From: an uncultured Candidatus Saccharibacteria bacterium | GTDB taxonomy: Bacteria; Patescibacteriota; Andersenbacteria; UBA10190 | Reading direction: 5' to 3' | Assembly: GCA_964610055.1 (NCBI GenBank) | Contig: CAZSUC010000001.1 | Span: 588,977-652,976, forward strand | Length of the DNA: 64,000 nucleotides | Part shown: positions 6,471 to 34,841 of the stretch, piece by piece | Layout of the letters: each line of letters opens with the position of its first letter | Numbering within the stretch: position 1 is the first letter of the stretch | Translations under genes and position numbers: made by a program | Notes under the pieces: model-generated | Seen by the model: only the letters and a program-made list of their open reading frames with translations | The model's database searches: none | What the model was told of the DNA's origin: nothing

Positions 6471-7493
6471 TTACTTCTTAGAAACAATAGTCTTCCCCAT
6501 ACTCTTTTCCGTATCTAATTTGCCATAACGAACATGAAAATTATCTGCAATATAGCCTAAAACGTCTTTGCGTTCTTGTACGCCTTGGATTGTATCGAGC
6601 CCCGCTCCCTCGCCCAAAATGTAATCAAATACCAAAATACCATTATCTTCTAACGCCTCATGCATTCGTTTAACTGTATCCAGCGGCCTATTCAAATGTT
6701 CAAACACAGTCATACAATAAATCACTTCTACTTTTCCTTCTGTTTTTAACTGGAATTCATCCGCCGGATCTAATACCAGCGGAAACACATTCTGATTACA
6801 TCCCAACTTATACGCTCCAAAATGAAATGCTAGCGTCGCAATATCACTAATAAATATTAACCCTTGTCTGCTTTTAGGCCAAAATTCCAACAACGTGGTA
6901 GTAATTGGAGCAGTCCCGCACCCGAATTCTAAACTCTTAGCTGGCCAACGCGGCGCTACTTGTCCCATCAAATTTAATAATGCTAATTCATTAGCACGCG
7001 ACTCCTTGTAAACCAAGTGTAGCAACTGGTACAAAACTTCTGGCTGCTGCCAAGCGCTTAAATGCTGCTCCGCCCCCGCCGCTCCCGGTACGTTGCTTTG
7101 TTGAAACTTCAATCGATACCAACTACGCAAAAAGTATAAATCCTCTGGCCCCCACAACGGTCTTCCTCCCAACACCTGGGACCAGTAGCGCTGAAAGACT
7201 TCAAACCAAGACTGATCCAATCCAGTTCTCCGCCACCAATGCCACGCATAATTCCTAGCTCTTAACGGCAACCAGCTAGTTCTATACACTTTATGAAATG
7301 GGTCTTTCAACCAATCATCAGATACATCTTCTCGATTTTCCGGCGGATATTGCGCGTATAGCTCAGATACATTCACTTGCATATTTCCATACCCATCCTT
7401 ATCTAAATCTATATTCTCATTACTCAACATCTGATATATTGTGCACGAGATGACCATACCTGCCAATAGCAAACCAATTAGATTTTTTCCCAT
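6471..7493 (-). CDS. Membrane-anchored class I SAM-dependent methyltransferase
   Basis: C-terminal LEFGCGTAPITTTLLEF...VIYCMTVFEHL...GILVF is a methyltransferase fold. The chosen start MGKNLIGLLLAGMVISCTIYQ gives an N-terminal transmembrane anchor. The ORF-track start at 7571 would overlap the divergent gene even more. Confidence 0.6.
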   Translation of the reverse strand: MGKNLIGLLLAGMVISCTIYQMLSNENIDLDKDGYGNMQVNVSELYAQYPPENREDVSDDWLKDPFHKVYRTSWLPLRARNYAWHWWRRTGLDQSWFEVFQRYWSQVLGGRPLWGPEDLYFLRSWYRLKFQQSNVPGAAGAEQHLSAWQQPEVLYQLLHLVYKESRANELALLNLMGQVAPRWPAKSLEFGCGTAPITTTLLEFWPKSRQGLIFISDIATLAFHFGAYKLGCNQNVFPLVLDPADEFQLKTEGKVEVIYCMTVFEHLNRPLDTVKRMHEALEDNGILVFDYILGEGAGLDTIQGVQERKDVLGYIADNFHVRYGKLDTEKSMGKTIVSKK

Positions 7494-8460
7494 TGCCGAC
7501 ACCGCTAGTGGCTGGTATCCTGACCGAGCCTTACAAGAATTTAAACAAGCCTCCTCCCTAAAGCTTGTCACTTCCCCTCACCAAGCAGACCTAATTTGGA
7601 TATTCTCTTACTACTTATCTCTTAATCCAATTTTGTCATGGCCACACCTGCGCCATCTTCTAAACCAACCACCCCTACGACATAAATCTTTAACACACAC
7701 GCCCGTCATTACTACTATTCACCACCTCTCCCCGCAGAAAAAAAATATCTGGCATCCAATCATAACTAACCTGGAACACATCACCGACTATTGGCATACA
7801 GCCAACCCAACAGGGCACGCGACTATTTCCAGCATCAGCTCAAAACCCATTATAGATTTACCTTATTGGATTGATACCAATCTTTTTCAGCCTTTCACGT
7901 CCAGCCAAAAACAAGCTAATCGCCAAAAGTTAAACATCCCCAAAGACCATTTAATCATTGGTAGTTTTCAACGTGACACTGAAGCAGACGGACAGACCCC
8001 CAAGCTGGACAAAGGTCCCGACATCTTCTGCGATATTATCGCTAAAATCCCGCAACCAGTCTTCGTAGTACTCACAGGAACTCGTCGCCAATATGTGGAA
8101 AAACGCCTAAAATCGGATAATATTCCGTATCTTAATGTTGGACATGTGCCCTATCATGATCTTCCCCGCTTATATTCCATCCTTGACTATTATTTAGTCA
8201 CCGCTCGCCTGGAAGGCGGCCCCCAGTCTATTCTTGAAACTATGGCAACCAATACCCCTATCCTTAGCACCTCGGTTGGTATATCCGGCCTCCTGCACTC
8301 CTCCGCTATTTTCTCGCCGGAATCCTTTACCCCTGATATTCTTCGCGCTGCCAACTCACCTCAAGTCCTTGCTCAACATCTAACTACTGCCACGCAATAT
8401 AGCATACAAAACATTATTCCTCAATACGATCAGGCTTTGGCACAGATATGCACAAACTAA
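7441..8460 (+). CDS. GT-B (GT4-like) glycosyltransferase
   Basis: C-terminal half DIFCDIIAKIPQPVFVVLTGTRRQY...YYLVTARLEGGPQSILETMATNTPILSTSVGISG fits a GT-B C-domain. The 5' end overlaps the divergent methyltransferase start and may begin at a non-ATG codon further in. Confidence 0.55.
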   Translation: MHEMTIPANSKPIRFFPIADTASGWYPDRALQEFKQASSLKLVTSPHQADLIWIFSYYLSLNPILSWPHLRHLLNQPPLRHKSLTHTPVITTIHHLSPQKKNIWHPIITNLEHITDYWHTANPTGHATISSISSKPIIDLPYWIDTNLFQPFTSSQKQANRQKLNIPKDHLIIGSFQRDTEADGQTPKLDKGPDIFCDIIAKIPQPVFVVLTGTRRQYVEKRLKSDNIPYLNVGHVPYHDLPRLYSILDYYLVTARLEGGPQSILETMATNTPILSTSVGISGLLHSSAIFSPESFTPDILRAANSPQVLAQHLTTATQYSIQNIIPQYDQALAQICTN

Positions 8461-8461
8461 T

Positions 8462-9490
8462 ATGAAAGTCTTCATCTCCTTCCCAATCAAATCAAAGCCT
8501 TACGGCGGCGCTAACCAGTTTCTCAAAGCACTCGCAAAAGAGTTAGAACTCACTGGTCACTTAACTCAAAATCCTGCAACCGCAAGTTTAATTCTCGTGA
8601 ACGCCAACCCCAGTAACTTATTCTTTGGATTTCAACAAGCCTTACGCTTAAAACAAAAGTTCCCTAAAGCCAAAGCCGTTATCCGAATTGATGGTCCCAT
8701 TTCACTTATTCGGAATACCAATAACACTATTGATAAACTAATTTTAAAACTATCTAACCTCTTGGCCGACGGCATCATCTTTCAGTCGCAATGGAGCGCA
8801 AAACATAACAATCTCATCCAGACGGTCACCGCCCCTAACCAAACCGTTATCTACAACTCTCCGGATAATCACATATTTTATCCGCAAACTACCCCAAAGC
8901 CCAGCGTCCCTATCCGCCTAATTGCGACTTCTTGGTCCTCTAATCAAAACAAAGGTTTTAGCTTTTATAGGTACATTGACGAAAACCTTGATTTTAAAAA
9001 ATACCACATGACCTTTGTCGGCAATGCGCCACAAACTTTTAAAAACATCCGCTGTCTTTCCCCCGTCTCATCTCACCAACTCGCCCACTTACTTAGACAA
9101 AGCGACATCTATATTACCGCTTCACGTAACGACCCCTGTTCTAACGCTCTGATTGAAGCCCTGGCGTGTGGACTTCCCGTCGTTGCCATGAATAGCGGCG
9201 GACACCCTGAGCTAGTCCAAAACAACGGGGAACTATTCCAAAACGCAACCGAATTGATCCAGAAGCTAGAAACAATCATATCTAATTATTCTCGTTACAC
9301 AAATCGGCTTCCCCGCTTTTCAATTAGTCAGACTGCCACCGAATACGTCCAATTTTTTAGCCAGGTTTCAGACACCCGCTCCACTCCCATCTCTATCTGG
9401 AAAACTTATCGTTACTGGACAATATGGGGAAAATACTATTTCACTACCATGGTTTCCGGAATCATCTCCCGAATCTTCCCTAAAATATAG
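8462..9490 (+). CDS. GT4 glycosyltransferase
   Basis: SDIYITASRNDPCSNALIEALACGLPVVAMNSGGHPELV is a GT4 motif. Confidence 0.75.
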   Translation: MKVFISFPIKSKPYGGANQFLKALAKELELTGHLTQNPATASLILVNANPSNLFFGFQQALRLKQKFPKAKAVIRIDGPISLIRNTNNTIDKLILKLSNLLADGIIFQSQWSAKHNNLIQTVTAPNQTVIYNSPDNHIFYPQTTPKPSVPIRLIATSWSSNQNKGFSFYRYIDENLDFKKYHMTFVGNAPQTFKNIRCLSPVSSHQLAHLLRQSDIYITASRNDPCSNALIEALACGLPVVAMNSGGHPELVQNNGELFQNATELIQKLETIISNYSRYTNRLPRFSISQTATEYVQFFSQVSDTRSTPISIWKTYRYWTIWGKYYFTTMVSGIISRIFPKI

Positions 9491-10374
9491 GCTGCTGCTG
9501 CTCCGTTCTGTATGTGTTGCGCAAAGTATTTTAGATTGTTTTTCGATATTTCCTTGCGCAGATTCTCATTTTTCAGGACAGGTAAGAGCTGTTTAGCTTT
9601 CTCCTTATACTCACTGCATAATTTTAAAAACTCAGCAGATGACAAATTATTATCCATTGGTCCGCTTAAACCTAAGCTCATATAGTGCACTTTCTCCCGT
9701 ACCGGAACGGGCCAATATGAAGTCGGCGGATAATCAGCTATCACTGCTCCTCCAATACTCATATAGTCAACCATTTTGAAACTTAGACAATCATGCTTCC
9801 CCCTGTTAAGAACATTCCAACGTGCCTGGCGGTTCCATTCTAACCATTTTTGATACGGCACATTATCTTTCCAAACTTCCACCCCGGCTTCTTGTAATAG
9901 CGCCCCCCACCGCTCATGGTCATCTGAACTCACCATCCTAGCCGCCAGTTTCATTTTAAAAGGCAAAGACGCTAACGCCAAAAACATCGCCACCTTATGA
10001 GGACGCCCCCCTGAAATACCAGCCAGCCAAACAATATCATACACCCTACGTTCCTCAGGAAGCGGGAAATTATGCTTTGTTAATGTCGTGCCGTTTAAAG
10101 ACGACACAACATTAACAGGATACAACCTCCCCGGATCATAATTAGCCTTAAAGTAAACCCCGTACTGCGTCGGATCATAGGCTAAGTCCTTACTATCTGT
10201 CACATCAATCAAATACGGTAAACCGTTGACTTCAAAATAAAAACAAGCCGGAGGACTACTTTTACGCAGATGTGGATATAGCTTAATTTTTCCCTGTCGC
10301 GCCAATTGCCAAAACTGCCGCATCCAAAAGCGGCTATACCAATGCGGATTAATTGCTATCGTGACTTTATCCAT
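9436..10374 (-). CDS. Hypothetical protein, distal gene of the nonulosonic-acid operon
   Basis: 312-aa ORF in tight operon spacing after the NeuB/PseI gene. I recognise no motif. It overlaps the convergent GT4 gene by 55 nt. Confidence 0.5.
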   Translation of the reverse strand: MDKVTIAINPHWYSRFWMRQFWQLARQGKIKLYPHLRKSSPPACFYFEVNGLPYLIDVTDSKDLAYDPTQYGVYFKANYDPGRLYPVNVVSSLNGTTLTKHNFPLPEERRVYDIVWLAGISGGRPHKVAMFLALASLPFKMKLAARMVSSDDHERWGALLQEAGVEVWKDNVPYQKWLEWNRQARWNVLNRGKHDCLSFKMVDYMSIGGAVIADYPPTSYWPVPVREKVHYMSLGLSGPMDNNLSSAEFLKLCSEYKEKAKQLLPVLKNENLRKEISKNNLKYFAQHIQNGAAAAYILGKIREMIPETMVVK

Positions 10375-10380
10375 ATAAAG

Positions 10381-11436
10381 CTATTCGTCTTTAATCATGT
10401 CCCAACTTAAAGGCTGTCCTTTTTTTAAAGTATACTTTGCTTTCCTACCTAGAACATCAGACCAATATTTCGGATGCATCCCAAATCCTGGCCGAATTGA
10501 CCGAATATTTGATTCGGTAAGACTCTCTCCTTCATTCACATCCTCTGTCACAAACAAGGAACGAGAGTGTTCCCGACTTTTCTTAGCCCTATTAGTCAAC
10601 ACAAAAGACCTTGTCCCCAAAGATTTTTCAATATTTCGAACTGCTTGCGACATCGCCTTAAATTCTTTCGGATCCAAAGAGAACATAGCATCTGGGCCAC
10701 CCAGATCCTTATCTAAAATAAAATGCTTCTCTATTATTTTTGCTCCCAACGCTGTTGCCGCCACTGGCATCTCAATTCCTAATGTATGATCAGACAAACC
10801 AACCACAGTCTGGTAGATCGCTTCTATTTCTGGCATTCCTCTTAAGTTTACCTCTTCTAAAGGAGTTGGATATGCGGATGTACATTTTAATAAAGCTATT
10901 TCATTATTACCCGCTTCTTTTATGGTTTGTACCGCTAAATCAATATCTTCTTTCATAGCCACGCCAGTTGATAATATTACTGGCTTATTCTTCTGTGCTA
11001 TATATCTAATTAACGGAATATCAGTAATTTCAAAAGAAGCAACTTTATAAGCCGGTACATCCATCTTTTCTAAAAAATCAACTGCCGTTTTATCAAACGG
11101 ACTAGAAAAACATACCAACCCCACGCTCTCTGCTACCTCTTTCAGTTTTGGCTGCCAATCCCACGGCGTATACGCCTTTTCATATAACTTATATAAGGTT
11201 GTACCATCCCATATGGTTCCTTGGTTAATTTGGAAATATTCGTTATCACAGTCTATCGTGATGGTATCAGGTGTATACGTTTGTAACTTGATCGCATCCG
11301 CCCCAGCATCTTTTGCTGCTTTTATAGTTGCTACTGCAACGTCAAAATCCTGATTATGATTTGCTGACAGCTCAGCAATAATAAAAACTGGACATTCTGT
11401 CCCAATCTTACGTTTAGCAATATTCATGACTGCCAT
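10381..11436 (-). CDS. NeuB-family nonulosonic acid synthase (pseudaminic/legionaminic/N-acetylneuraminic acid synthase, PseI-like)
   Basis: CPVFIIAELSANHNQDFDVAVATIKAAKDAGADAIKLQTY...KCTSAYPTP...GLSDHT is the NeuB TIM-barrel signature. A C-terminal SAF domain is present. Confidence 0.85.
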   Translation of the reverse strand: MAVMNIAKRKIGTECPVFIIAELSANHNQDFDVAVATIKAAKDAGADAIKLQTYTPDTITIDCDNEYFQINQGTIWDGTTLYKLYEKAYTPWDWQPKLKEVAESVGLVCFSSPFDKTAVDFLEKMDVPAYKVASFEITDIPLIRYIAQKNKPVILSTGVAMKEDIDLAVQTIKEAGNNEIALLKCTSAYPTPLEEVNLRGMPEIEAIYQTVVGLSDHTLGIEMPVAATALGAKIIEKHFILDKDLGGPDAMFSLDPKEFKAMSQAVRNIEKSLGTRSFVLTNRAKKSREHSRSLFVTEDVNEGESLTESNIRSIRPGFGMHPKYWSDVLGRKAKYTLKKGQPLSWDMIKDE

Positions 11437-12056
11437 ACTTTTATCTTATTAAGAATCTTATACGCGTCATCATTGTCCATCACATTCTTAATGTGCACCG
11501 CCTCTATACTAACATTCATAGCACCTTTAATATCAGCTTCCCAGTCATCCCCTATAACTAAGGCCTCTGATGGATCAACATTAAACCTTTCCAACGCTTC
11601 CAGGAAATACTTCTGATGTGGTTTTGCGTACTGCAACCCATCCAACTGAGAGTATAAAATTAGGTCAAAATAATTCTCCAGACCTAAAGCTTCAACTTTC
11701 CGTGCCTGCACATTCGGCCACCCATTCGTAATCAAACAAAGCTGATGATCCACACCCAACCTGCCTAATAACTCAACTACTTGCTCGGACATTCGTATAT
11801 CTGGCACATGAGAACGATATACATTAATTAATTCCGGCACCACCCCTGCCCCTAAAGCAAACTTCTGTACTAAAGTTTCAATGTTCTTTCCGCGTCCATT
11901 CCTAATAAACGACTCTAATAACAATCTATACGCTTCAAAATAGCTCTTGTTGAATTTATGTTGAACATATTTCGCTACCGTTTTAAATCCACTGATAACA
12001 TAGTCACCTTCAGCATATAGAGTATTATCCAGATCAAAAATTAATAATTTAATCAT
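11424..12056 (-). CDS. HAD-superfamily hydrolase (subfamily IA-like)
   Basis: N-terminal LLIFDLDNTLY (DxD motif I), plus internal T/S and K motifs and ...LVIGDDWEADIKGA (motif IV). Confidence 0.75.
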   Translation of the reverse strand: MIKLLIFDLDNTLYAEGDYVISGFKTVAKYVQHKFNKSYFEAYRLLLESFIRNGRGKNIETLVQKFALGAGVVPELINVYRSHVPDIRMSEQVVELLGRLGVDHQLCLITNGWPNVQARKVEALGLENYFDLILYSQLDGLQYAKPHQKYFLEALERFNVDPSEALVIGDDWEADIKGAMNVSIEAVHIKNVMDNDDAYKILNKIKVWQS

Positions 12057-13027
12057 ACCTTAGACACTTCGGCATCTTCTAAAAATAAATCCTGACTAAA
12101 TCGCATCATTATTAACCCTGGTTTAAAACCCTGATAACTAACAGGTAAGTTACGCAATAAGCGCAGAATAAAAACAGGTGTGTTAGCCCCAGACGCAAAA
12201 GACAGACTGCTTCCGCCTCCGTACCGCGGATTAATCTCTAGAAGTTTCACTGACCCATCGCTCAGCTTAAAACACTGCAGTACGTTATGCCCAATGAGCT
12301 GCAACTTCTCTCCAACTGCTCTCGCCAATTCCAGCACTTCCTTATCATCCACCGTCACCCCAACTTTCGATTCCCCGTCTTCAACCAGCAGTCTCACTCG
12401 CGGCACAATACTAATAACCTTACCTTGCCAATCAGAAAAATAATCGACTGAATACTCGACCCCCACCACTTGTTCCTGAAAAAGGGGATTTGAAACCAGC
12501 TTTAAAGCCATGTCCATTTCTTCTGGATTCGACACCAATTGCACCCCTCTGCTCCCCGCCCCCCAACGCTCTTTGACTATACAAGGAAAATTTGTAACTT
12601 CTGCCTTATCCAACCAAGTTTGGATAAATGGAAAATGGTTCCGCACTAAAAATTTAAAAAAAGCATATTTATCATTGCAGACTGTCGCCGTTTCATATGA
12701 TGGAGCCACAACTTTTACTCCTGCCTGATCGAATGTTTTTTGGTTCTTTGCTAGATACAAGACATCACTATCCCGTGTTGGCACCACTAAACTTATATTA
12801 TTTTTCTTACAAGTTTCGATAATATATTCGTCAAATCTAGGATCATCTAAACGAGGAGAAACATCAAACGCATCGCATGCATACAAGCCCGCGGAATAAG
12901 GGTTAATATCAAGACCAATTACCTTGCCAATCACATTTTCGTGCTTTAGAGCGTCCTTAAACGAGTTCACCAGCGTAACTTTATTACTTACACTCGTAAT
13001 TAGAATATTAATCTGCGCATCCTTCAT
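12053..13027 (-). CDS. ATP-grasp domain protein (probable amide/peptide ligase modifying the nonulosonic acid)
   Basis: PCIVKERWGAGSRGVQLV...KLLEINPRYGGG is an ATP-grasp fold signature. The gene overlaps its neighbours within the operon. Confidence 0.7.
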   Translation of the reverse strand: MKDAQINILITSVSNKVTLVNSFKDALKHENVIGKVIGLDINPYSAGLYACDAFDVSPRLDDPRFDEYIIETCKKNNISLVVPTRDSDVLYLAKNQKTFDQAGVKVVAPSYETATVCNDKYAFFKFLVRNHFPFIQTWLDKAEVTNFPCIVKERWGAGSRGVQLVSNPEEMDMALKLVSNPLFQEQVVGVEYSVDYFSDWQGKVISIVPRVRLLVEDGESKVGVTVDDKEVLELARAVGEKLQLIGHNVLQCFKLSDGSVKLLEINPRYGGGSSLSFASGANTPVFILRLLRNLPVSYQGFKPGLIMMRFSQDLFLEDAEVSKV

Positions 13028-13547
13028 ACTCTCTTCTTAGCATAGCGTGTAAAACACTGTCGTAATAATGCCCTTTTTTGTATACATTCTCCCTGAGAAC
13101 ACCTTCTTTTCTAAAACCGATCTTCTCTAAAGCTAATATTATCCGTTTTCTAAAAACATAAGTCTCAGTAACAACTCGGTTCATATTCATATCGCCAAAC
13201 CCTACATTTAACATGTGTTTTACAAATCCAGTGAATATCCCTAAAAATTCCTCGTCTGACTCCGACAATTTCGGATCCAACAAAAACGAAATCTCTCCTT
13301 TTTGGCTCACATAATCAACATGCACCAACCCTCCGTAACCAATCAGATCTCCAGTTTCATCAACAATCGCCAGCAGCCTTTCTTGATTACCGAAACTGAT
13401 TCTTTCCCAATACCGATCCTGGTCATCATTTGTTAATTTTTGATTTTGCCGCAGAATATCCATCTGCTTGTTCCTCCAATCCTTAATCAGTGACAAATCC
13501 TGCCTTCTCAATTCTCGAATTCCGTAATCTTTATAAATATTTTGCAT
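13008..13547 (-). CDS. GNAT family N-acetyltransferase (PseH-like)
   Basis: 179 aa. The acetyl-CoA-binding region (..IVDETGDLIGYGGLVHVD..GFRKEGVLRENVY) sits between the cytidylyltransferase and ATP-grasp genes. Confidence 0.65.
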   Translation of the reverse strand: MQNIYKDYGIRELRRQDLSLIKDWRNKQMDILRQNQKLTNDDQDRYWERISFGNQERLLAIVDETGDLIGYGGLVHVDYVSQKGEISFLLDPKLSESDEEFLGIFTGFVKHMLNVGFGDMNMNRVVTETYVFRKRIILALEKIGFRKEGVLRENVYKKGHYYDSVLHAMLRREYEGCAD

Positions 13548-13548
13548 A

Positions 13549-14301
13549 CTATATCCTGTAAACCACTGGAGTATAAGCCACTTCTTGAAGAGAGGTTGTT
13601 TTTTGCTTCACTTCACAATTGACTGTTAATAGCCCGTGATTTTCCTTAAGATAATATACAATATTTTCGAACGTTAAAGATTTAACATTTTGCATAACGA
13701 TGCGAACTAGCCGGTAATCATCTTTCGTATCTAAGGTTAATCGCATCTCAGAAAAATCGCGGTTGCACACTAACGCTCCAGCGTTTACTTTATTTCTCCT
13801 GCTTCTCATATACAAAGTCACATGCTCTCGCTCTGCTTGTGTCCTGGCGTTCTGGCATGCCTGCTCTAACAACTCAAAAGAAAAAACCTCTGCGTCAAAC
13901 CCTCTTGGAAACGTCTCCGTATCAATTCTAGCATAAGCAAATTTATTTTTCTGAAACGCTTTATATAGCGCTTGAATCAAAGATGAATCCACCAAAGGAC
14001 AATCAGCAGTTATCCGAATTATGACATCATACCCACCCTCTTTAGAACACTTATAGAACCTCTCCAAAACGTCCGTTTCCGACCCCCTAAAACACTTCAC
14101 TCCATTACCTTTACACAAATCAAATATTACATCGTCCTGTCGCTGGTCAGAAGTTGCTACAATCACTTCTCCTAAATCGGCTATCTGCATCCTTCTAACC
14201 ACATGCATTAATACCGGCACGCCTTCCAGATCCAGCATAACCTTGCCCGGCAAACGAGTTGACCCCATTCTGGCCTGAATAATAATAGCTGGATTATTCA
14301 T
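13549..14301 (-). CDS. Acylneuraminate/pseudaminate cytidylyltransferase-family protein (SpsF/PseF-like)
   Basis: IIQARMGSTRLPGKVM...VIVATSD...DVIIRITADCPL is the CMP-sugar synthetase (CTP_transf_3) signature. Confidence 0.75.
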   Translation of the reverse strand: MNNPAIIIQARMGSTRLPGKVMLDLEGVPVLMHVVRRMQIADLGEVIVATSDQRQDDVIFDLCKGNGVKCFRGSETDVLERFYKCSKEGGYDVIIRITADCPLVDSSLIQALYKAFQKNKFAYARIDTETFPRGFDAEVFSFELLEQACQNARTQAEREHVTLYMRSRRNKVNAGALVCNRDFSEMRLTLDTKDDYRLVRIVMQNVKSLTFENIVYYLKENHGLLTVNCEVKQKTTSLQEVAYTPVVYRI

Positions 14302-15422
14302 TTTTTCTTTAAAAACTGTCGAACTAACCTGATAACTATATCCTGATCCTTTACCGATAAAGATGGGTACATTGGCAGACTCATGATTGTACTATAAAAC
14401 TTTTCTGCCTTAGGACATTGACCCTTCTTATAACCTTTCTTCTGATAGTAAGGATGCCAATATACCGGTATGTAGTGAACTTGGGTCATCACTCCATAAT
14501 CATGCAAAAAATCATATAATTTCCGTCTCACTATGTCATCTTTAAGTCTAATGACGTACAAATGGTAAGCGTGCTCTACGTCCCGGCTTAACGGCAGAAC
14601 CTGTAGACCTTTCAGTCCCAAAAAAGACTTATCATACCGCCGAGCAAGCATTCTTCGTCTTTCAATAAAAAAACTTATTTTATTCAACTGACTAGCACCT
14701 AAAGCAGACTGGATATCAGTCATTCTATAATTAAAACCCAAATCTACCATTTCATAACACCAAGGATCATATAGTCTATCTTCATTCTTCTGAATACCAT
14801 GGCTTCTTAACCGCAACAATTTTTGATACAAATCATCGGAATTAGTTGTTATCATACCGCCCTCACCAGTTGTAATATGCTTAACCGGATGGAAGCTAAA
14901 AACTGACATGTCAGAATACTTACAACTTCCCACTCGGCTTCCTTTATACTCTGCCCCCAATGCATGACACGCATCCTCAATTACGATTAGTCCTTGCTTT
15001 TTCGCAACCCTACTAATTTTTTCCATATTACATACCGAACCAGCGTAATGCACCGGTATAATTACTTGAGTTTTTTTAGTCACCTGGCCCAATACCAGGT
15101 TTTCATCAAGTAACCCATTAGCCTTAATATCAACAAAAACAGGCTTAGCCCCGCAATACCACGCACAATTTGCAGAAGCGACAAACGTCATCGGTGATGT
15201 TATTAATTCTTCTCCCCTTTTTAATCCGGAAGCCAGGCAAGCTAAATGCAAAGCCGCGGTCCCCGAAGATACAGCAACGGCATATTTTGCGCCAACATAC
15301 TGACTAAAGAGATTTTCAAATTCTACTACTTGCGGACCACTTGTAAGCCAATCTGACTTTAAAACATTAGCCACAGCTTCTACGTCCTTATTATCCACAA
15401 ACTGATGTCCGTACGATATCAT
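14298..15422 (-). CDS. DegT/DnrJ/EryC1-family PLP-dependent sugar aminotransferase (PseC-like)
   Basis: AVAVSSGTAALHLA... and the FSFHPVKHITTGEGG lysine motif. Overlaps by 4 nt with both neighbours. Confidence 0.85.
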   Translation of the reverse strand: MISYGHQFVDNKDVEAVANVLKSDWLTSGPQVVEFENLFSQYVGAKYAVAVSSGTAALHLACLASGLKRGEELITSPMTFVASANCAWYCGAKPVFVDIKANGLLDENLVLGQVTKKTQVIIPVHYAGSVCNMEKISRVAKKQGLIVIEDACHALGAEYKGSRVGSCKYSDMSVFSFHPVKHITTGEGGMITTNSDDLYQKLLRLRSHGIQKNEDRLYDPWCYEMVDLGFNYRMTDIQSALGASQLNKISFFIERRRMLARRYDKSFLGLKGLQVLPLSRDVEHAYHLYVIRLKDDIVRRKLYDFLHDYGVMTQVHYIPVYWHPYYQKKGYKKGQCPKAEKFYSTIMSLPMYPSLSVKDQDIVIRLVRQFLKKK

Positions 15423-16444
15423 CTTAACAACCCCAAAGAGTTAAATAGCTTTATAACCTCTTTTTTTGAAATTACCGCATCCCGCGAACTGTATTGTTCC
15501 ATTACTTTTTCGTCTAACAATTTTCCTTGCCTCATATAAGCCGGACGCGTCTTCCCGGATTGAGCTTGTATACAAGAACTAATCACATACAAATTCTTAA
15601 AATCATAAGTCCTTGGAACTTCGGCAGAATTAATCATCAGCTCATGAATCTTTTCACCAGGTCTTAACCCGATTTTTTTAATCTTACTGTTAGCCTGATA
15701 TCGCTCTGTCAGTATTTCAATTAAATCCGTAACTTTAAAAGACGGCAATTTTGGAATAAACACTTCTCCGCCCACCCCATACCTCAGAGCATCAAATATT
15801 AAATTGACAGCTTGCTTAGGGCTAATAATAAAGCGTGTCATTCGCGAATCCGTCAAAGGAATGCTTTCACCTTGCATAATCTTCTCTGTAAAAAACGGAA
15901 TTACAGATCCTGTGCTTTCTAAAACATTACCATATCTAACCGTAGTAAACACGGTTTTAATGTCCCCCTTACTATAATTACTCTCACTAAAGATCCTCTC
16001 ACTCACAAATTTGCACGCCCCATAAGTATTAACCGGAGCACACGCCTTATCGCTAGAAATAAATACAGCCTTTTGAACACGATTATGCAAACAAGCGTCA
16101 ACTACATTTAACGTTCCAATAATATTAGTCTTAATTGACTCTTCCACGTTATATTCCAGTAAATCAAGTCGTTTGAGAGCAGCTGCATGTATCACGATAT
16201 CAGCCTGCCTCGTTGCTCTTATCAGCCTCTCTCGATCGCGAATATCTCCTAGTAAATGACGAATCTTATTATTATGCTTAAACAATTCTTGAAGATGGTG
16301 GTGCTTTACTTCGTCACGGCTAAACACACGAACGCTATGCGGCCCCTTTTTTAATATCTCTGTCACTAACGAGCGCCCTAAATATCCAGTACCCCCAGTA
16401 ATTAATATTGTTTTACCCTGAAACATATTGGTTTTCTTTGCCAT
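15419..16444 (-). CDS. UDP-GlcNAc 4,6-dehydratase (5-inverting), PseB/FlaA1/CapD-short family
   Basis: KTILITGGTGYLGRSL...VRVFSRDE...GDIRD...YGACK is closely PseB/FlaA1-like. An AGGTGA SD precedes the ATG. Confidence 0.85.
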   Translation of the reverse strand: MAKKTNMFQGKTILITGGTGYLGRSLVTEILKKGPHSVRVFSRDEVKHHHLQELFKHNNKIRHLLGDIRDRERLIRATRQADIVIHAAALKRLDLLEYNVEESIKTNIIGTLNVVDACLHNRVQKAVFISSDKACAPVNTYGACKFVSERIFSESNYSKGDIKTVFTTVRYGNVLESTGSVIPFFTEKIMQGESIPLTDSRMTRFIISPKQAVNLIFDALRYGVGGEVFIPKLPSFKVTDLIEILTERYQANSKIKKIGLRPGEKIHELMINSAEVPRTYDFKNLYVISSCIQAQSGKTRPAYMRQGKLLDEKVMEQYSSRDAVISKKEVIKLFNSLGLLR

Positions 16445-16550
16445 ATATCACCTAAACTTACTATGCTTATACTGCCCTAAAAAGTAAATTTTGCAGCTAC
16501 TTAATATAAACCCATCCTGAATTTATTGACAACAAAATGTATACCACTAT

Positions 16551-17762
16551 ATGTCAAATAATATAGGTTTTGTCATATCCCGTTCTGCCGAATTAAAAGT
16601 ATATGCCCCCCTTGCCAGCGCTGCTTTAGCCAAAGGATATAAAGTTTTTTTAATATGCGGCCCAAACCCTGAACAATCATGGCCCAATACACCTACATAC
16701 AAACCCATTAAAGCCAACTTAAGGTTTCAGGATGACCAGCACATTCAATATATTCCGTATTCTGACTACAAAGATGCACACCACCAAATTATAACGCACC
16801 GGATTAAAAATATTTTTACCCTTGGCTTCCGTCCCGGTTCTTTGACTTATTATCTTGGCCACCAAATCTCACAAAAATTCCGTCTCTACGGGCTCCAGTC
16901 TTATGCCGATTACTTGGCTACTCCTCCGGAATTAATGCAAAAGTTTGACGCTTTTTTCACTTTCAGCCCAATCATGAAAGACATATATCAAAAAGTTTAT
17001 CCCAAAGCGTCTATGGCAAGTCTAAACAGCGTCTTTCAAGCTGTCGGCAATCCCATGACTGAAAACATTAACACACTTCAACAACACTCTGCCGATATCC
17101 GCTCAAAATACAGCCTGCCTAGCAACAAAAAGATTGTATTATTGTTATCCTTTAACATCGGTAACGAATTATGGAGAAAATATGTTTTTGGTTCACCCAA
17201 CTGGCTATATTCTCTTGCTGCCCTAATCTACTTTCACGAATACTCTAAGATACCTTTAATCTGGTCTCAACCCAAGCTCAAGCGTATCCTAGCCGAACTT
17301 AAGCAATGGACCCGACAAAACAACGCGATTCTTGTCACCAAAACCCGGTCCAAACAAAACGAGCCCTCTTACCTCAAACGCACAACTGATTATCTTATTA
17401 CAGACACCGGATCTTGGCTGCCCTATCCTGCCCTGGAACTCATGTCTATTTCTGATTTGGTGGTCAGCTTTAACAGCACCGGAATCATTGAATCATCCGC
17501 ACTAGGCAAATTCATGCTTTCTATAAAATTAACTGACGATAAAACCACGTCAATTGGAGACACGTTTACTCGTACAATTTATCGCCCCTCAAACGTTAGT
17601 CAAACTGTGGACTACTATGACTTTCAAAAATTTCTATCATCACACGCCTTATCAGACTTTACCAAACAATCATCTGAATTTGCGCTCTATAACAACACCT
17701 TTATTAGCAAAAATACCACCCCCGCATCGCATCAAATTCTTGATTACTTAAATCAACATTAA
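16551..17762 (+). CDS. Hypothetical protein (candidate glycosyl/nonulosonate transferase), divergent from the pse operon
   Basis: 403-aa ORF. No motif is confidently recognised. Its position suggests a role in using the activated sugar. Confidence 0.5.
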   Translation: MSNNIGFVISRSAELKVYAPLASAALAKGYKVFLICGPNPEQSWPNTPTYKPIKANLRFQDDQHIQYIPYSDYKDAHHQIITHRIKNIFTLGFRPGSLTYYLGHQISQKFRLYGLQSYADYLATPPELMQKFDAFFTFSPIMKDIYQKVYPKASMASLNSVFQAVGNPMTENINTLQQHSADIRSKYSLPSNKKIVLLLSFNIGNELWRKYVFGSPNWLYSLAALIYFHEYSKIPLIWSQPKLKRILAELKQWTRQNNAILVTKTRSKQNEPSYLKRTTDYLITDTGSWLPYPALELMSISDLVVSFNSTGIIESSALGKFMLSIKLTDDKTTSIGDTFTRTIYRPSNVSQTVDYYDFQKFLSSHALSDFTKQSSEFALYNNTFISKNTTPASHQILDYLNQH

Positions 17763-17765
17763 GAC

Positions 17766-19655
17766 TTATTCACCGAATGACATCTGCTGTGTTAACAACA
17801 TCTGATAGTACTGCCCTCTTTTTCGTAGTAGCTCTTCCGACGAACCAAACTCAATTATTCTACCCTTACTTATAACTGCTATAATATCAGCCTGAGTTAC
17901 CGTCGACAGCCGATGAGCGATTATAATTGTAGTTTTTTTATGGCTCAAAGCGTTGATTGCCTGCTGCACCTCGTGCTCTGACTTACTGTCCAGAGCACTT
18001 GTTGCTTCATCAAAGACCATTACCTGTGGATCACGTACCAGAGCCCGTGCAATTGCTATCCTCTGTCTCTGCCCTCCAGACAACCGCACTCCTCTATCAC
18101 CAATCACCGTGTCATATCCATCCGCTAAATGACTGATAAACCCATGCGCGTTAGCCGCAACCGCCGCCTTCCGAATCTTGTCTATAGGACATTCTCGTGA
18201 TGCACCATAAGCAATGTTCTGCCCGACGGTATCATGAAACAAAAACACGTCCTGACTCACCACTCCAAACAGATTACGATAACTCGCCTTTTCAAAATCT
18301 TTCACATCCACCCCATCAACCAAAATCCGGCCTTTTGTTGGATAATATAATCCTAAAATTATATCTACCAAAGTACTTTTCCCTGAACCACTTTCTCCTA
18401 CTAAAGCCAAAGTCTTTCCAGTCGGCAAGAACAGATCTATATCTCTCAGTACTAAGCCATCTCCATAGCTAAAACTCACCTTCTCAAACTTTATCCCATG
18501 CTTCACCACACTAACCCGCTTTACGCCTTTATCAGTTTCTTGAGGCTCATTCAAAAATGAATATACTCTCTCAGTTGAGGCCATGCCTTCTTTTATGCTA
18601 AACCAAACGCCTACTAAGATATTCACGGGCTGCTGGAACCTGGTTAGCACGACAAAAAACAGAATCAGCTCCGGTACCGACAACTCATTCCTTATAATCA
18701 AAACTCCCCCTAAAAACACCACGGCCCCCGATAACAACGCGCTTGTAATTTCTTTAAAACGGTTTGGCAATGCTTTGCTTGCTGCATTCAGAGCCTCTAA
18801 TCGACGCCATTCTTGTAAATACTGCCTCCAACGCGTATTTTCGTCTTGTGCACGGTTAAATATTTTCACCACCTTAATGCCACTTAACGTCTCCTGTATT
18901 ACAGATGTAACTGCCGCCTGCACAACCAATATTTTTCGTTTATTGCTTTTCATCCACTCGCCTATTCCAATGGAAAATACACTGATCAAAATCCCGACTG
19001 GAATCATAATTAAAACTAGCTTTGCATTAATGACTAATAAAACGACAAGTAAGCTCGCCGAAACAAAAAAATTAATCACTATGTTGGCCACACTTCCGGA
19101 AACCATCTGAATCACCCCTTCGATATCATTAGTCATGCGAGACAAAATCGTTCCACTCCGCTCCTTTACAAAATACTGGTATGGCAGCTTAACTAGATGC
19201 TCATAACACGTTGCTCTTAGTAAAGCGTTTCCGCCCGTTTGCACACGAATGAACAAGAAATCCACTCCAAAGCCAATTATTGCCGACAAAACAACCAGAC
19301 TAATTATAAACCCCACTAGCCGTATCAACTGAAACGACTTCGTCCCTTCCCCAGCAACCACCACATAAAAGTTATTAACAACACTTTTCACCCGACTCTC
19401 CCATTCGGACACTTTTTTAAAAGCCAAGGGCTCACCATACATTTCCGGATCACTACTACTACCAAGCCCGCTCACTTCTTCAGGAAACAAAGTTTGCACT
19501 ACAGGCAAAAAAGAGTAAGTGGCTACACTGCTAACTAAACTCAACATGATCGCCAAAACACTCGCCACCACTAACACCCGCCACTCCGGCAGAATATACC
19601 GTAATGCCCAGCCATATAAACAGATTTGTTTACGCTTGTCCATCCACTGCCACAC
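17766..19655 (-). CDS. ABC transporter, fused permease/ATPase (type I exporter, MsbA-like)
   Basis: N-terminal 6-TM domain. Walker A GESGSGKST, ABC signature LSGGQRQRIAIARAL and Walker B VMVFDEATSALD. Confidence 0.9.
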   Translation of the reverse strand: MWQWMDKRKQICLYGWALRYILPEWRVLVVASVLAIMLSLVSSVATYSFLPVVQTLFPEEVSGLGSSSDPEMYGEPLAFKKVSEWESRVKSVVNNFYVVVAGEGTKSFQLIRLVGFIISLVVLSAIIGFGVDFLFIRVQTGGNALLRATCYEHLVKLPYQYFVKERSGTILSRMTNDIEGVIQMVSGSVANIVINFFVSASLLVVLLVINAKLVLIMIPVGILISVFSIGIGEWMKSNKRKILVVQAAVTSVIQETLSGIKVVKIFNRAQDENTRWRQYLQEWRRLEALNAASKALPNRFKEITSALLSGAVVFLGGVLIIRNELSVPELILFFVVLTRFQQPVNILVGVWFSIKEGMASTERVYSFLNEPQETDKGVKRVSVVKHGIKFEKVSFSYGDGLVLRDIDLFLPTGKTLALVGESGSGKSTLVDIILGLYYPTKGRILVDGVDVKDFEKASYRNLFGVVSQDVFLFHDTVGQNIAYGASRECPIDKIRKAAVAANAHGFISHLADGYDTVIGDRGVRLSGGQRQRIAIARALVRDPQVMVFDEATSALDSKSEHEVQQAINALSHKKTTIIIAHRLSTVTQADIIAVISKGRIIEFGSSEELLRKRGQYYQMLLTQQMSFGE

Positions 19656-19688
19656 TTAAAAACACATGATATTATTACAGTAGACGTT

Positions 19689-22093: not shown

Positions 22094-22102
22094 AAAACTG
22101 AC

Positions 22103-23503: not shown

Positions 23504-23568
23504 TATCTCACGTATTTATAGCATACCGCATTGCCAGGCTCCCCCTCCAGCGATTACCCTTATACTTA

Positions 23569-29662: not shown

Positions 29663-29664
29663 AG

Positions 29665-31620: not shown

Positions 31621-31659
31621 GCATTACTTATAGTACAATAATTCTAATTAATAAACCGA

Positions 31660-34814: not shown

Positions 34815-34841
34815 CCACCAAGCCAGTCTTGGTGGATTTTT
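34815..34841 (+). terminator. Rho-independent terminator between the convergent 34510 (+) and 34840 (-) genes
   Basis: CCACCAAG-CCAGT-CTTGGTGG 8-bp stem followed by ATTTTT. Confidence 0.65.

What the first reader, a model, noticed from the sequence alone, without database searches (positions are those of the whole stretch)
9436..17762. Non-canonical nonulosonic-acid (pseudaminic-like) operon with ATP-grasp and HAD extras, no PseG, and two unknown candidate transferases
PseB-like dehydratase, PseC-like aminotransferase, a CMP-sugar synthetase-family cytidylyltransferase, a GNAT, and a NeuB/PseI synthase are co-linear with overlapping ends. No GT-B UDP-sugar hydrolase (PseG) is present. An ATP-grasp ligase and a HAD phosphatase sit inside the operon instead. 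This suggests a derivatised nonulosonate, for example an amino-acid- or glycerate-modified one, or a variant pathway. The 312-aa ORF (9436-10374) at the operon end and the divergent 403-aa ORF (16551-17762) have no recognisable motifs. They are the best candidates for the missing hydrolase or the nonulosonate transferase.
Basis: partly seen in the sequence, partly recalled or inferred. Interest (0 to 1): 0.5.

Follow-up and report, generated by a model that had tools for sequence, protein, structure and literature searches.

The report
Pseudaminic-acid operon lacking PseG, with acylation module
This is a real gene cassette for making and attaching a pseudaminic-acid-type surface sugar in an uncultured, probably candidate-phyla-radiation bacterium; it lacks the usual UDP-sugar hydrolase gene and carries a portable two-gene module that probably changes one acyl group, so it is a variant of a well-known pathway, not a new kind of system.

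Summary
Eight tightly packed minus-strand genes (16444→9436) encode a PseB-like dehydratase, PseC, an SpsF-type cytidylyltransferase, a GNAT, an ATP-grasp ligase, a HAD phosphatase, PseI and a 312-aa protein. A 403-aa gene is transcribed divergently.

No PseG was detected in the operon or in the 64-kb window by the HMM, fold and six-frame searches run; the rest of the genome is unseen.

Both "unknowns" are GT-B enzymes.
- **403-aa protein:** it is TagF/2-epimerase-like. It belongs to a family of about 474 cluster representatives, and 33 of 62 sampled members match the Tannerella Pse/Leg-transferase family (BFO_1060). The family lies near a CTP_transf_3 gene in all six loci examined, counting this window. 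It is the best nonulosonate-transferase candidate.
- **312-aa protein:** it is GT4-like. Its relatives also occur in glycan loci where no NulO gene is visible, so it is probably a general glycan-assembly transferase.

ATP-grasp+HAD is a portable pair. It sits in polysaccharide loci of several phyla near 4-aminosugar genes, and in an Acetoanaerobium Pse island that has PseG but no PseH. It therefore does not replace PseG. It most likely N-acylates the 4-amino intermediate.

This is a variant of a known pathway, of moderate interest.

The parts
15419..16444 (-). PseB-like UDP-GlcNAc 4,6-dehydratase (inverting type), first gene of the operon
   Evidence: Pfam Polysacc_synt_2 at 1.4e-88. TIGR03589 PseB scores 345.6 bits. 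That is the best family but lies below the 407.75 cut-off; the next family, FnlA, scores 209.7.
14298..15422 (-). PseC aminotransferase (makes the UDP-4-amino-4,6-dideoxy-L-AltNAc intermediate)
   Evidence: TIGR03588 PseC scores 484.5 bits, above the 423.5 cut-off. Pfam DegT_DnrJ_EryC1 at 3.4e-120.
13549..14301 (-). SpsF-type CTP_transf_3 cytidylyltransferase, inferred CMP-nonulosonate synthetase (not a PseF-model member)
   Evidence: CTP_transf_3 at 2.5e-31. The PseF model TIGR03584 gives only 20.9 bits against a 205.7 cut-off. The closest solved structure is 6oew, 'Cytidylyltransferase', at 1.2e-38. It is 41% identical to the cytidylyltransferase of the Acetoanaerobium Pse island.
13008..13547 (-). 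GNAT N-acetyltransferase, only weakly PseH-like
   Evidence: Acetyltransf_4 at 6.9e-15. TIGR03585 PseH gives 28.1 bits against a 93.1 cut-off. The nearest solved structures are YdaF, AAC(6') and SpeG-type amine acetyltransferases; no chain named PseH appears among the 26 matches at E<=0.01.
12053..13027 (-). ATP-grasp carboxylate-amine ligase (PylC-like N domain; PRK12767 'CPSase-like' family)
   Evidence: PylC-like_N at 2.5e-20, ATPgrasp_Ter at 1.4e-18, ATP-grasp_3 at 1.4e-13. NF009405 scores 228 bits against a 390 cut-off. PDB 2pn1 matches at 4e-29. Homologs sit next to a homologous HAD in 8 of 9 plasmid or replicon loci examined.
11424..12056 (-). HAD-IA phosphatase (DxDxT motif: FDLDNT at residues 7-12), partner of the ATP-grasp ligase
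   Evidence: HAD_2 at 4e-21. TIGR02253 scores 109 bits against a 169.75 cut-off. The nearest solved structures are PH1655 (6e-16) and N-acylneuraminate-9-phosphatase (about 1e-11). Homologs at 26-32% identity lie beside ATP-grasp homologs in L017, L018, L020-L025.
10381..11436 (-). PseI pseudaminic acid synthase (NeuB family with SAF domain)
   Evidence: TIGR03586 PseI scores 500.2 bits, above the 340.25 cut-off; the NeuB model scores 317 bits, below its own cut-off. Pfam NeuB at 4.3e-93 plus SAF.
9436..10374 (-). 312-aa GT-B glycosyltransferase, GT4-like, last gene of the operon; probably a general glycan-assembly transferase
16551..17762 (+). 403-aa GT-B enzyme of a TagF/BFO_1060-related family; best candidate for the CMP-pseudaminate transferase
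16445..16550 (.). 106-bp divergent intergenic region between the pse operon and the 403-aa gene
   Evidence: Read from the sequence. It holds one sigma-70-like match on each strand (16532->16503 on the minus strand, 16438-16467 on the plus strand). Such matches are no more frequent in this region than in shuffled sequence (25 against 23.7), so this is anatomy only.
17766..19655 (-). MsbA/PglK-like ABC exporter, inferred flippase of the same glycan locus (context)
   Evidence: ABC_membrane plus ABC_tran. MsbA model TIGR02203 scores 435 bits, below its cut-off. A homolog directly follows the 312-aa homolog in L006, L007, L008 and L010, and follows the 403-aa homolog in L015 and L016.

Best explanation
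The region is a cassette that makes, activates and transfers a pseudaminic-acid-type nonulosonate. It sits inside a large surface-glycan locus of an uncultured bacterium that is probably a Patescibacteria/CPR member.

**Inferred pathway**
1. The PseB-like dehydratase and PseC convert UDP-GlcNAc to UDP-4-amino-4,6-dideoxy-L-AltNAc.
2. The 4-amino group is acylated. Acylation is by the GNAT (acetyl), by the ATP-grasp ligase, or by both. The ligase would activate a carboxylic acid as an acyl phosphate and form an amide. The HAD phosphatase would remove a phosphate from the acid, before or after ligation. Candidate acids are phosphoglycerate (giving N-glyceroyl) or a phospho-amino acid whose amine the GNAT then caps.
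3. UDP is removed by an enzyme that was not identified. No PseG is present in the 64 kb.
4. PseI condenses the free hexose with PEP.
5. The SpsF-type cytidylyltransferase makes the CMP-sugar.
6. The 403-aa TagF/BFO_1060-like GT-B enzyme transfers it to the growing glycan.
7. The 312-aa GT4-like enzyme and the neighbouring GT4 enzymes build the glycan. The MsbA-like ABC protein exports it.

**What is shown and what is inferred**
Gene identities, folds and gene neighbourhoods are shown. The order of steps, the identity of the acid and every enzymatic activity are inferred.
For: - **Core enzymes.** PseC and PseI score above their curated cut-offs, and PseB is the best hit for its gene.
- **Cytidylyltransferase.** It is of the SpsF/CTP_transf_3 type. 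In B. subtilis a spsF mutant still makes Leg but does not transfer it (PMC7439481).
- **403-aa ORF.**
  - Its fold is TagF-like GT-B.
  - 33 of 62 relatives hit the BFO_1060 model. Members of that family, Tanf_01245 and TFUB4_00887, are genetically required for Pse/Leg transfer in Tannerella (PMC5420450).
  - Relatives lie next to a CTP_transf_3 gene in the window and in L003, L011, L014, L015 and L016.
  - In L011 a relative heads an operon that already contains Epimerase_2, NeuB and a cytidylyltransferase.
- **ATP-grasp and HAD.**
  - Homologous pairs are adjacent in 7 of 9 plasmid or replicon loci and close in an eighth.
  - A DegT/PseC-like aminotransferase lies within 9 kb in 8 of 9, and a NeuB homolog in only 1 of 9.
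  - That one locus, an Acetoanaerobium flagellin island, has PseB, the cytidylyltransferase, ATP-grasp, HAD, two methyltransferases, PseI, PseG and PseC but no PseH-like GNAT. There the pair occupies the N-acylation slot.
- **Precedents.**
  - Neisseria PglB2 carries an ATP-grasp domain in place of the acetyltransferase domain and gives a 4-glyceramido sugar (PMC11130364).
  - C. jejuni Cj1438C (an ATP-dependent amidoligase) and the Cj1435 HAD phosphatase ligate a phosphorylated partner and then dephosphorylate the product (PMC11800397).
- **Related CPR loci.** L008 and L010 carry FkbH, ACP and (in L008) an AAC(3)-type acyltransferase; in L008 these lie next to a PseI-type synthase that is 53% identical to the window's. 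L010 ends before a synthase could appear. This suggests the N-acyl group varies in this lineage.
Against: - No enzyme for UDP removal was found, so the pathway as written has a gap.
- The PseB score is below the curated cut-off, so the sugar's stereochemistry is not certain.
- The GNAT is only weakly PseH-like. The presence of both a GNAT and an ATP-grasp ligase leaves the N-acylation logic ambiguous.
- The 403-aa ORF itself scores only 18.6 bits on BFO_1060, against a cut-off of 200.
- Its closest relatives in L014 and L016 have no NeuB homolog in the sequence held.
- Direct homology of this ATP-grasp ligase to PglB2 could not be tested.
- No activity was measured for any protein.
Confidence: 0.55

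Rival explanations
1. The 403-aa GT-B protein is the missing UDP-sugar hydrolase. It would be a non-orthologous replacement of PseG, working like the hydrolysing NDP-sugar 2-epimerases NeuC and LegG that perform this step in the Neu and Leg pathways. The transferase would then be a different protein, for example the 312-aa GT.
For: - 3 of 62 relatives hit the NeuC_NnaA model and 1 of 62 hits Epimerase_2.
- The C-terminal stretch NSTGIIES resembles the DSGGIQEE motif of 2-epimerases. This comparison rests on reading the sequence and on recall of the motif.
- No PseG is detectable.
- The gene is divergent from pseB here and lies directly downstream of a PseB-like gene in L015 and L016.
Against: - Sequence profiles favour Glyphos_transf (10 of 62) and BFO_1060 (33 of 62) over the epimerase families.
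- Foldseek ranks TagF first.
- In L011 a relative co-exists with a genuine Epimerase_2 gene, NeuB and a cytidylyltransferase, so no hydrolase is needed there.
- L014 and L016 hold relatives with no NeuB homolog in the sequence held.
- A 2-epimerising hydrolase would give a C5 epimer of Pse, which fits poorly with a PseI-type synthase.
Confidence: 0.15
2. The pathway is the canonical one, and PseG is simply encoded elsewhere in the genome. The ATP-grasp and HAD pair decorates something other than the Pse precursor. It might act on another amino sugar of the same glycan. Alternatively it might amidate a sugar carboxylate, such as Pse C1 or a uronic acid, with a phospho-amine in the manner of Cj1438 and Cj1435.
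For: - Only 64 kb of a 698,565-bp contig is visible.
- A GNAT that could serve as PseH is present.
- The ATP-grasp and HAD pair occurs in seven further loci with no NeuB homolog found.
- The biochemical precedent amidates a sugar carboxylate on the polymer and then removes phosphate (PMC11800397).
Against: - The pair is embedded between the GNAT and PseI with overlapping reading frames.
- In Acetoanaerobium the pair is translationally coupled to the cytidylyltransferase inside a Pse island that lacks PseH.
- The consistent neighbour of the pair across loci is a 4-aminosugar aminotransferase, not a uronate-forming dehydrogenase.
Confidence: 0.2
3. The 403-aa protein is a TagB/TagF-type phosphotransferase that adds an alditol- or glycerol-phosphate from a CDP-activated donor. 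The 312-aa GT at the operon end is the pseudaminate transferase.
For: - TagF and TarL are top structural matches.
- 10 of 62 relatives hit Glyphos_transf.
- In L003 the relative lies in a locus with faint GDPD, Inositol_P and weak NTP_transferase hits and no NeuB homolog in the sequence held.
- The 312-aa gene follows pseI after 6 bp. Its relatives lie near a NeuB homolog in L008, L011 and L026, and near a homologous cytidylyltransferase in L010.
Against: - The window contains no recognisable CDP-glycerol or CDP-ribitol synthesis genes. The only cytidylyltransferase near the gene is the one inside the pse operon.
- The 312-aa protein is GT4-like with a DX7D motif, a class that uses NDP-sugars. 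From recall, no GT4-type nonulosonate transferase is known.
- Its relatives also occur where no NulO gene is visible.
Confidence: 0.1

Closest known systems
Canonical CMP-Pse5Ac7Ac pathway of Campylobacter jejuni / Helicobacter pylori (PseB, PseC, PseH, PseG, PseI, PseF)
   Same: PseB-like, PseC and PseI homologs are present. PseC and PseI score above their curated cut-offs. A GNAT and a cytidylyltransferase occupy the expected roles. From recall, the gene order B-C-cytidylyltransferase-...-I resembles many pse clusters.
   Different: No PseG was found. The cytidylyltransferase is of the SpsF type and not a PseF-model member (20.9 bits against 205.7). The GNAT scores 28 bits against a PseH cut-off of 93. 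Two extra genes, ATP-grasp and HAD, lie between the GNAT and PseI.
Acetoanaerobium noterae flagellin glycosylation island (NZ_CP154629.1, locus L024)
   Same: It has the same combination of PseB (44% identity), an SpsF-type cytidylyltransferase (41%), ATP-grasp (29%), HAD (32%), PseI (56%) and PseC (49%).
   Different: It has a PseG (TIGR03590, 117 bits), a Maf protein, flagellins and two methyltransferases, and it lacks a PseH-like GNAT. It has no 403-aa or 312-aa homolog. As far as the papers searched show, it is uncharacterised.
Tannerella forsythia Pse5Am7Gra / Leg-derivative transferases Tanf_01245 and TFUB4_00887 (NCBIfam NF046086, BFO_1060 family)
   Same: These are soluble GT-B/TagB-like enzymes of about 440 aa, encoded beside the nonulosonate biosynthesis locus. 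Knock-outs lose the terminal nonulosonate (PMC5420450). 33 of 62 relatives of the 403-aa ORF match the family model.
   Different: The 403-aa ORF itself scores 18.6 bits against a cut-off of 200, and only over residues 178-333. The HP motif position reads K-Q-N-E-P in this protein. The relationship is remote, at superfamily level.
Neisseria PglB2 (ATP-grasp domain fused to a phosphoglycosyltransferase), which makes 4-glyceramido-2-acetamido-2,4,6-trideoxyhexose
   Same: An ATP-grasp enzyme takes the place of the acetyltransferase that normally N-acylates a UDP-4-amino-4,6-dideoxy-HexNAc (PMC11130364). In L017 the ATP-grasp homolog overlaps the end of a PglC-like sugar-transferase gene, and in L022 it lies about 340 bp downstream of one. 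This mirrors the PglB2 fusion.
   Different: Sequence homology to PglB2 could not be tested here. The substrate would be an L-altro sugar and not a bacillosamine-type sugar. This operon keeps a GNAT and adds a HAD phosphatase.
C. jejuni capsule amidoligase Cj1438C with HAD phosphatase Cj1435
   Same: ATP-dependent amide formation uses a phosphorylated partner and is followed by HAD-catalysed dephosphorylation (PMC11800397). This is the same two-enzyme logic.
   Different: There the carboxylate is on the sugar (GlcA C6) and the amine is serinol- or ethanolamine-phosphate, and the reaction takes place on the polymer. Here the gene neighbourhoods point to a sugar amine. Homology was not tested.

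Membership tests
Canonical pseudaminic acid pathway (PseBCHGIF) | PseB: inverting UDP-GlcNAc 4,6-dehydratase (TIGR03589) | tested here: inconclusive
   345.6 bits. This is the best family but lies below the 407.75 cut-off; the next best, FnlA, scores 209.7.
Canonical pseudaminic acid pathway (PseBCHGIF) | PseC aminotransferase (TIGR03588) and PseI synthase (TIGR03586) | tested here: met
   PseC scores 484.5 bits against 423.5. PseI scores 500.2 bits against 340.25.
Canonical pseudaminic acid pathway (PseBCHGIF) | PseH N-acetyltransferase (TIGR03585) | tested here: inconclusive
   The GNAT scores 28.1 bits against a cut-off of 93.1. No chain named PseH is among the PDB sequence matches at E<=0.01.
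Canonical pseudaminic acid pathway (PseBCHGIF) | PseG UDP-sugar hydrolase (TIGR03590; GT28-like GT-B) | tested here: not met
   No hit in the 50 window ORFs put through Pfam, 20 of them also through NCBIfam. The Acetoanaerobium PseG finds nothing in the six-frame window (best E 0.33 and 2). hhalign against both unknown families gives a probability below 1%. The rest of the genome was not visible.
Canonical pseudaminic acid pathway (PseBCHGIF) | PseF CMP-Pse synthetase (TIGR03584) | tested here: not met
   20.9 bits against a cut-off of 205.7. A CTP_transf_3 enzyme of another subtype is present. It is functionally analogous by inference from SpsF.
BFO_1060 family nonulosonate transferases (NF046086) | Match to the family model above its cut-off | tested here: not met
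   The 403-aa ORF scores 18.6 bits (E 8e-4) against a cut-off of 200. 33 of 62 relatives match, with a best E of 3.4e-15. The relationship is remote and does not amount to membership.
TagF/TagB CDP-glycerol glycerophosphotransferases (Pfam Glyphos_transf) | GT-B fold similar to TagF | tested here: met
TagF/TagB CDP-glycerol glycerophosphotransferases (Pfam Glyphos_transf) | Sequence match to Glyphos_transf and a conserved active-site histidine | tested here: inconclusive
   There is no Pfam hit for the ORF itself. 10 of 62 relatives hit the model, best 1.1e-6. No histidine is invariant in the family. The K-H-x-E-P position reads K-Q-N-E-P in this protein.
Hydrolysing NDP-sugar 2-epimerases (NeuC/LegG; Pfam Epimerase_2) | Fold and sequence match to Epimerase_2 or NeuC | tested here: inconclusive
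GT4-type retaining glycosyltransferases (for the 312-aa ORF) | GT-B fold with a GRxxxK phosphate loop and an EX7E motif | tested here: inconclusive
ATP-grasp + HAD aminosugar-acylation module (PglB2-like logic) | ATP-grasp ligase adjacent to a homologous HAD and near a DegT-type sugar aminotransferase | tested here: met
   A HAD homolog is adjacent in 7 of 9 loci and close in an eighth. A DegT/PseC-like gene lies within 9 kb in 8 of 9.
ATP-grasp + HAD aminosugar-acylation module (PglB2-like logic) | Sequence homology to the PglB2 ATP-grasp domain, and demonstrated N-acylation activity | not testable with these tools
   No Neisseria sequence was available in the collections. The primary paper (PMC1976187) is not held.

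The most novel reading that the evidence does not exclude
Some CPR bacteria make a pseudaminic-acid derivative without PseG. A previously undescribed GT-B family (the 403-aa family, about 474 cluster representatives, TagF/NeuC-like) would supply either the UDP-sugar hydrolase step or a new class of nonulosonate transferase. An uncharacterised, widely mobile ATP-grasp + HAD module would install a phospho-acid-derived N-acyl group, for example N7-glyceroyl. The enzymes for that group are still unassigned in Tannerella and Vibrio, according to PMC5378307.
Probability: 0.2. Interest if true: 0.6.

Novelty: new variant of a known kind. Interest (0 to 1): 0.4.

Why it matters
Nonulosonic acids decorate bacterial surfaces and flagella, and their N-acyl variants determine antigenicity.

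[quoted passage not shown] The ATP-grasp + HAD pair is a concrete, cloneable candidate. It recurs in Bacillota, Bacteroidota, Alphaproteobacteria and this CPR-like genome.
- **The 403-aa family.** Few nonulosonate transferase families are known, and this family would add to them.
- **The missing PseG.** If PseG is truly absent from the genome, the pathway would need a non-orthologous UDP-sugar hydrolase.

None of this changes the general picture of the pathway. The value lies in assigning functions to uncharacterised families.

Tried and rejected
**Searches that gave nothing or could not be run**
- Direct Pfam, NCBIfam and PDB sequence searches of the two unknown ORFs gave nothing usable, apart from one weak BFO_1060 hit.
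- The word-seeded homolog search found only 3-4 relatives of the 403-aa ORF. The exhaustive search was needed to show that the family is large.
- A genome-contig scan with the ATP-grasp protein found no relative. A scan with the 312-aa alignment found one Andersenbacteria contig. The source genome is apparently not in that collection.
- Alignments A4 and A5 were too diverse for the search for related loci. A3 returned only three metagenome loci.
- The afdb50 fold library was unavailable.
- The primary PglB2 papers (PMC1976187, PMC3719539) are not held, so neither the nature of 'ORF8' nor PglB2 homology could be checked.
- Literature searches for ATP-grasp together with pseudaminic or nonulosonic acid returned nothing relevant.

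**Ideas considered and rejected**
- *HAD as an NANP-like nonulosonate-9-phosphate phosphatase.* A 9-deoxy sugar has no 9-OH to phosphorylate, and the same HAD travels with the ATP-grasp ligase in loci with no NeuB homolog found.
- *ATP-grasp + HAD as a PseG substitute.* All three co-exist in L024.
- *The 312-aa ORF as PseG.* Its fold is GT4-like, its relatives occur in loci where no pse gene is visible, and hhalign probability is 0.1%.

Promoter-like matches in the divergent spacer are no more frequent than chance.

Full report
**Observation**

All nine ORFs are present at the stated coordinates. Eight lie on the minus strand, with overlapping or nearly abutting ends. Junctions overlap by 4, 4, 20, 4 and 13 bp, or are separated by 1 and 6 bp.
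- PseB-like, 15419-16444
- PseC, 14298-15422
- cytidylyltransferase, 13549-14301
- GNAT, 13008-13547
- ATP-grasp, 12053-13027
- HAD, 11424-12056
- PseI, 10381-11436
- 312-aa ORF, 9436-10374

The 403-aa ORF (16551-17762) is divergent across a 106-bp spacer. Curated models support the calls.
- PseC scores 484.5 bits and PseI 500.2 bits, both above their cut-offs.
- PseB scores 345.6 bits. It is the best family for that gene but lies below its cut-off.
- The cytidylyltransferase is CTP_transf_3 (2.5e-31) but not a PseF-model member (20.9 bits against 205.7).
- The GNAT is only weakly PseH-like (28 bits against 93).

**Context**

The same gene set occurs on Logan contigs from SRR8925805 and SRR8925775 and on an NCBI contig of 698,565 bp. 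Named relatives of the 312-aa protein are from Candidatus Andersenbacteria. The source is therefore probably a Patescibacteria/CPR genome; this was not verified.

Much of the window, roughly 0.3-34 kb and 40-54 kb, is a glycan locus. It holds:
- GT2 and GT4 enzymes and methyltransferases;
- an MsbA-like ABC exporter;
- several YfhO-, PMT_2- and ALG3-like membrane proteins;
- NDP-sugar genes: an NTP_transferase, an RmlD-type reductase, several epimerase/dehydratase genes and a PfkB kinase.

Related CPR loci share a core made up of the 312-aa GT, the ABC exporter and the membrane proteins. The pse operon region has a slightly lower G+C content, 0.40 against 0.44. This fits a variable cassette inside a conserved locus.

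**Is PseG present?**

No PseG was found.
- No TIGR03590 or Glyco_tran_28_C match appears in the 50 window ORFs put through Pfam, 20 of them also through NCBIfam.
- A genuine PseG was recovered from the closest comparator cluster (L024; TIGR03590, 117 bits). It finds nothing in the six-frame translation of the whole window. The best tblastn E-value is 0.33 and the best phmmer E-value is 2.
- hhalign of that PseG against the two unknown families gives probabilities of 0.9% and 0.1%.

The remaining ~635 kb of the contig could not be seen.

**The 403-aa ORF**

- *Family size.* Word-seeded searches found only four relatives. The exhaustive search found 474 cluster representatives at E<=1e-3.
- *Sequence relationships.* Of 62 sampled members, 33 match NCBIfam NF046086, the BFO_1060 family (best 3.4e-15). 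Ten match Pfam Glyphos_transf, one Epimerase_2 and three NeuC. BFO_1060, Tanf_01245 and TFUB4_00887 are the Tannerella proteins whose deletion removes the terminal Pse or Leg derivative (PMC5420450).
- *Gene neighbourhood.* A relative lies near a CTP_transf_3 gene in every locus examined: the window, L003 (at the contig edge), L011, L014, L015 and L016. In L011 it heads an operon that already holds Epimerase_2, NeuB and a cytidylyltransferase. There its most economical role is the transferase.
- *Caveat.* L014 and L016 have no NeuB homolog in the sequence held, so donor specificity may differ within the family.
- *Compositional bias.* The gene is on the C-rich coding strand. Plus-strand proteins here are compositionally shifted and score poorly against HMMs. 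This probably explains the apparent lack of motifs.

**The 312-aa ORF**

- *Motifs.* The invariant GGRxHK and D195-x7-D203 motifs look like variants of the GT4 phosphate loop and EX7E motif.
- *Gene neighbourhood.* Relatives lie in CPR glycan loci with a NeuB homolog (L008, L011, L026) or with a homologous cytidylyltransferase (L010). They also lie in loci where no NulO gene is visible (L012, L013, L027).

It is best read as a glycan-assembly transferase, and not as PseG or a dedicated nonulosonate transferase.

**ATP-grasp and HAD**

A tblastn search of plasmid records found 60 records with ATP-grasp homologs. Nine loci were examined.
- A homolog of the window's HAD (26-32% identity) is adjacent in seven: Priestia, Leisingera, Sinorhizobium, Roseibium, Phocaeicola, Acetoanaerobium and Palleronia.
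- It lies about 1.1 kb away in Segatella and is absent from one E. coli plasmid.
- A DegT/PseC-like aminotransferase lies within 9 kb in eight of the nine.
- A NeuB homolog is present in only one.
- In Priestia the ATP-grasp gene overlaps the end of a PglC-like sugar-transferase gene. In Segatella it lies about 340 bp downstream of one. This recalls Neisseria PglB2, where an ATP-grasp domain replaces the acetyltransferase domain and a 4-glyceramido sugar results (PMC11130364).

The single NeuB-containing locus is an Acetoanaerobium noterae flagellin island. It holds flagellins, a Maf protein, PseB, the cytidylyltransferase, ATP-grasp, HAD, two methyltransferases, PseI, PseG, PseC and a GT1-domain protein. 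It has no PseH-like GNAT. From this, two conclusions follow.
- The pair does not replace PseG.
- In that island it occupies the N-acylation slot.

The HAD has the DxDxT phosphatase motif. Its nearest solved structures are PH1655 and N-acylneuraminate-9-phosphatase. There is a biochemical precedent for an ATP-dependent amidoligase paired with a HAD phosphatase. In C. jejuni, Cj1438C ligates a phosphorylated partner and Cj1435 then removes the phosphate (PMC11800397).

Related CPR loci L008 and L010 carry FkbH and ACP; L008 also has an AAC(3)-type acyltransferase and a DUF4910 protein. In L008 these lie beside a PseI-type synthase that is 53% identical to the window's. L010 ends before a synthase could appear. 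The N-acyl group therefore seems to be a variable feature in this lineage.

**Model**

1. UDP-GlcNAc is converted by the PseB-like enzyme and PseC to the UDP-4-amino sugar.
2. The amine is acylated by the ATP-grasp ligase. HAD removes a phosphate from the acid moiety.
3. The GNAT either supplies the ordinary acetyl alternative or caps an amino group on the acyl chain.
4. UDP is removed by an unidentified enzyme.
5. PseI and the SpsF-type cytidylyltransferase give the CMP-sugar. In B. subtilis a spsF mutant makes Leg but does not transfer it (PMC7439481).
6. The 403-aa enzyme transfers the sugar.

All enzymatic steps are inferred. Glyceroyl is a favoured guess for the acyl group, but it is only a guess.

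**Rivals**

- The 403-aa protein is a NeuC-like replacement of PseG (about 0.15).
- PseG lies elsewhere in the genome, and the pair acts on another sugar or on a carboxylate (about 0.2).
- The 403-aa protein is a teichoic-type phosphotransferase, and the 312-aa GT transfers Pse (about 0.1).

**Novelty**

The pathway is known, and the ATP-grasp/HAD combination already exists in a cultured Clostridia genome. What is unusual here is the following.
- PseG is absent from the locus.
- A GNAT and the ATP-grasp/HAD pair co-exist.
- An undescribed GT-B family is placed as the likely transferase.

I rate this a new variant of a known kind, of moderate interest.

Noticed in passing
window 1-64000: The strand asymmetry is extreme. 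GC skew is about -0.3 in nearly every 2-kb bin (range -0.14 to -0.49). At third codon positions the skew is +0.60 in 31 minus-strand genes and -0.52 in 13 plus-strand genes. Amino-acid usage differs strongly by coding strand (plus against minus: E 2.7 vs 6.9%, V 4.5 vs 9.3%, H 3.3 vs 1.5%, P 6.0 vs 3.7%). Plus-strand glycosyltransferases score only 30-45 bits on GT4 models, against 139 bits for a minus-strand one.
   Followed up: partly
window 19626-33930 and 40168-44324: A run of large membrane proteins shows weak YfhO, PMT_2 or ALG3 (GT-C-like) matches or no match at all. Several are conserved next to the 312-aa GT and the ABC exporter in Andersenbacteria-type loci (L006, L010, L012). They look like the conserved core of a CPR surface-glycosylation locus.
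   Followed up: partly
L024 (NZ_CP154629.1, 2381177-2400112): The Acetoanaerobium noterae flagellin glycosylation island holds a Maf protein, PseB, an SpsF-type cytidylyltransferase, ATP-grasp, HAD, two methyltransferases, PseI, PseG and PseC, and has no PseH. It is a culturable system in which the function of the ATP-grasp/HAD module could be determined. The record is labelled a plasmid but is 2.63 Mb long.
   Followed up: partly
L008 2765-10940 and L010 12707-17904: Related CPR loci place FkbH, an ACP, a MaoC dehydratase, an SDR and a phosphopantetheinyl transferase next to a cytidylyltransferase; L008 also has an AAC(3)-type acyltransferase and a DUF4910/DUF2172 protein. In L008 these lie beside a PseI-type synthase that is 53% identical to the window's. 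L010 ends before a synthase could appear. This looks like an ACP-dependent route to a non-acetyl N-acyl nonulosonate.
   Followed up: no
L014 639-6481, L016 6202-9983: Relatives of the 403-aa ORF lie beside a CTP_transf_3 gene and GFO/IDH/MocA oxidoreductases. L014 also has a DegT aminotransferase and an acetyl-CoA-synthetase-like enzyme, and L016 a PseB-like dehydratase. There is no NeuB homolog in the sequence held. This may be a different CMP/CDP-activated donor.
   Followed up: no
window 10001-18000: G+C content is about 0.40 over the pse operon and the 403-aa gene, against about 0.44 on both sides. This fits a variable cassette within the glycan locus.
   Followed up: no
window 34840-36135: An ORF has TraG/TrwB-type coupling-protein and HerA-like ATPase domain matches. 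It lies between two blocks of glycan genes.
   Followed up: no
window 6471-7571 (-) and 7441-8460 (+): The annotated GTG start of the plus-strand GT overlaps the 5' end of the divergent methyltransferase gene by 131 bp. The true start of one of the two is probably further in. Homologs of this methyltransferase lie convergent with, and overlapping, 403-aa homologs in L003 and L014.
   Followed up: no
window 62253-63644: An Nramp family divalent-metal transporter (NF037982, 322 bits) lies at the edge of the window. It is unrelated to the glycan locus.
   Followed up: no
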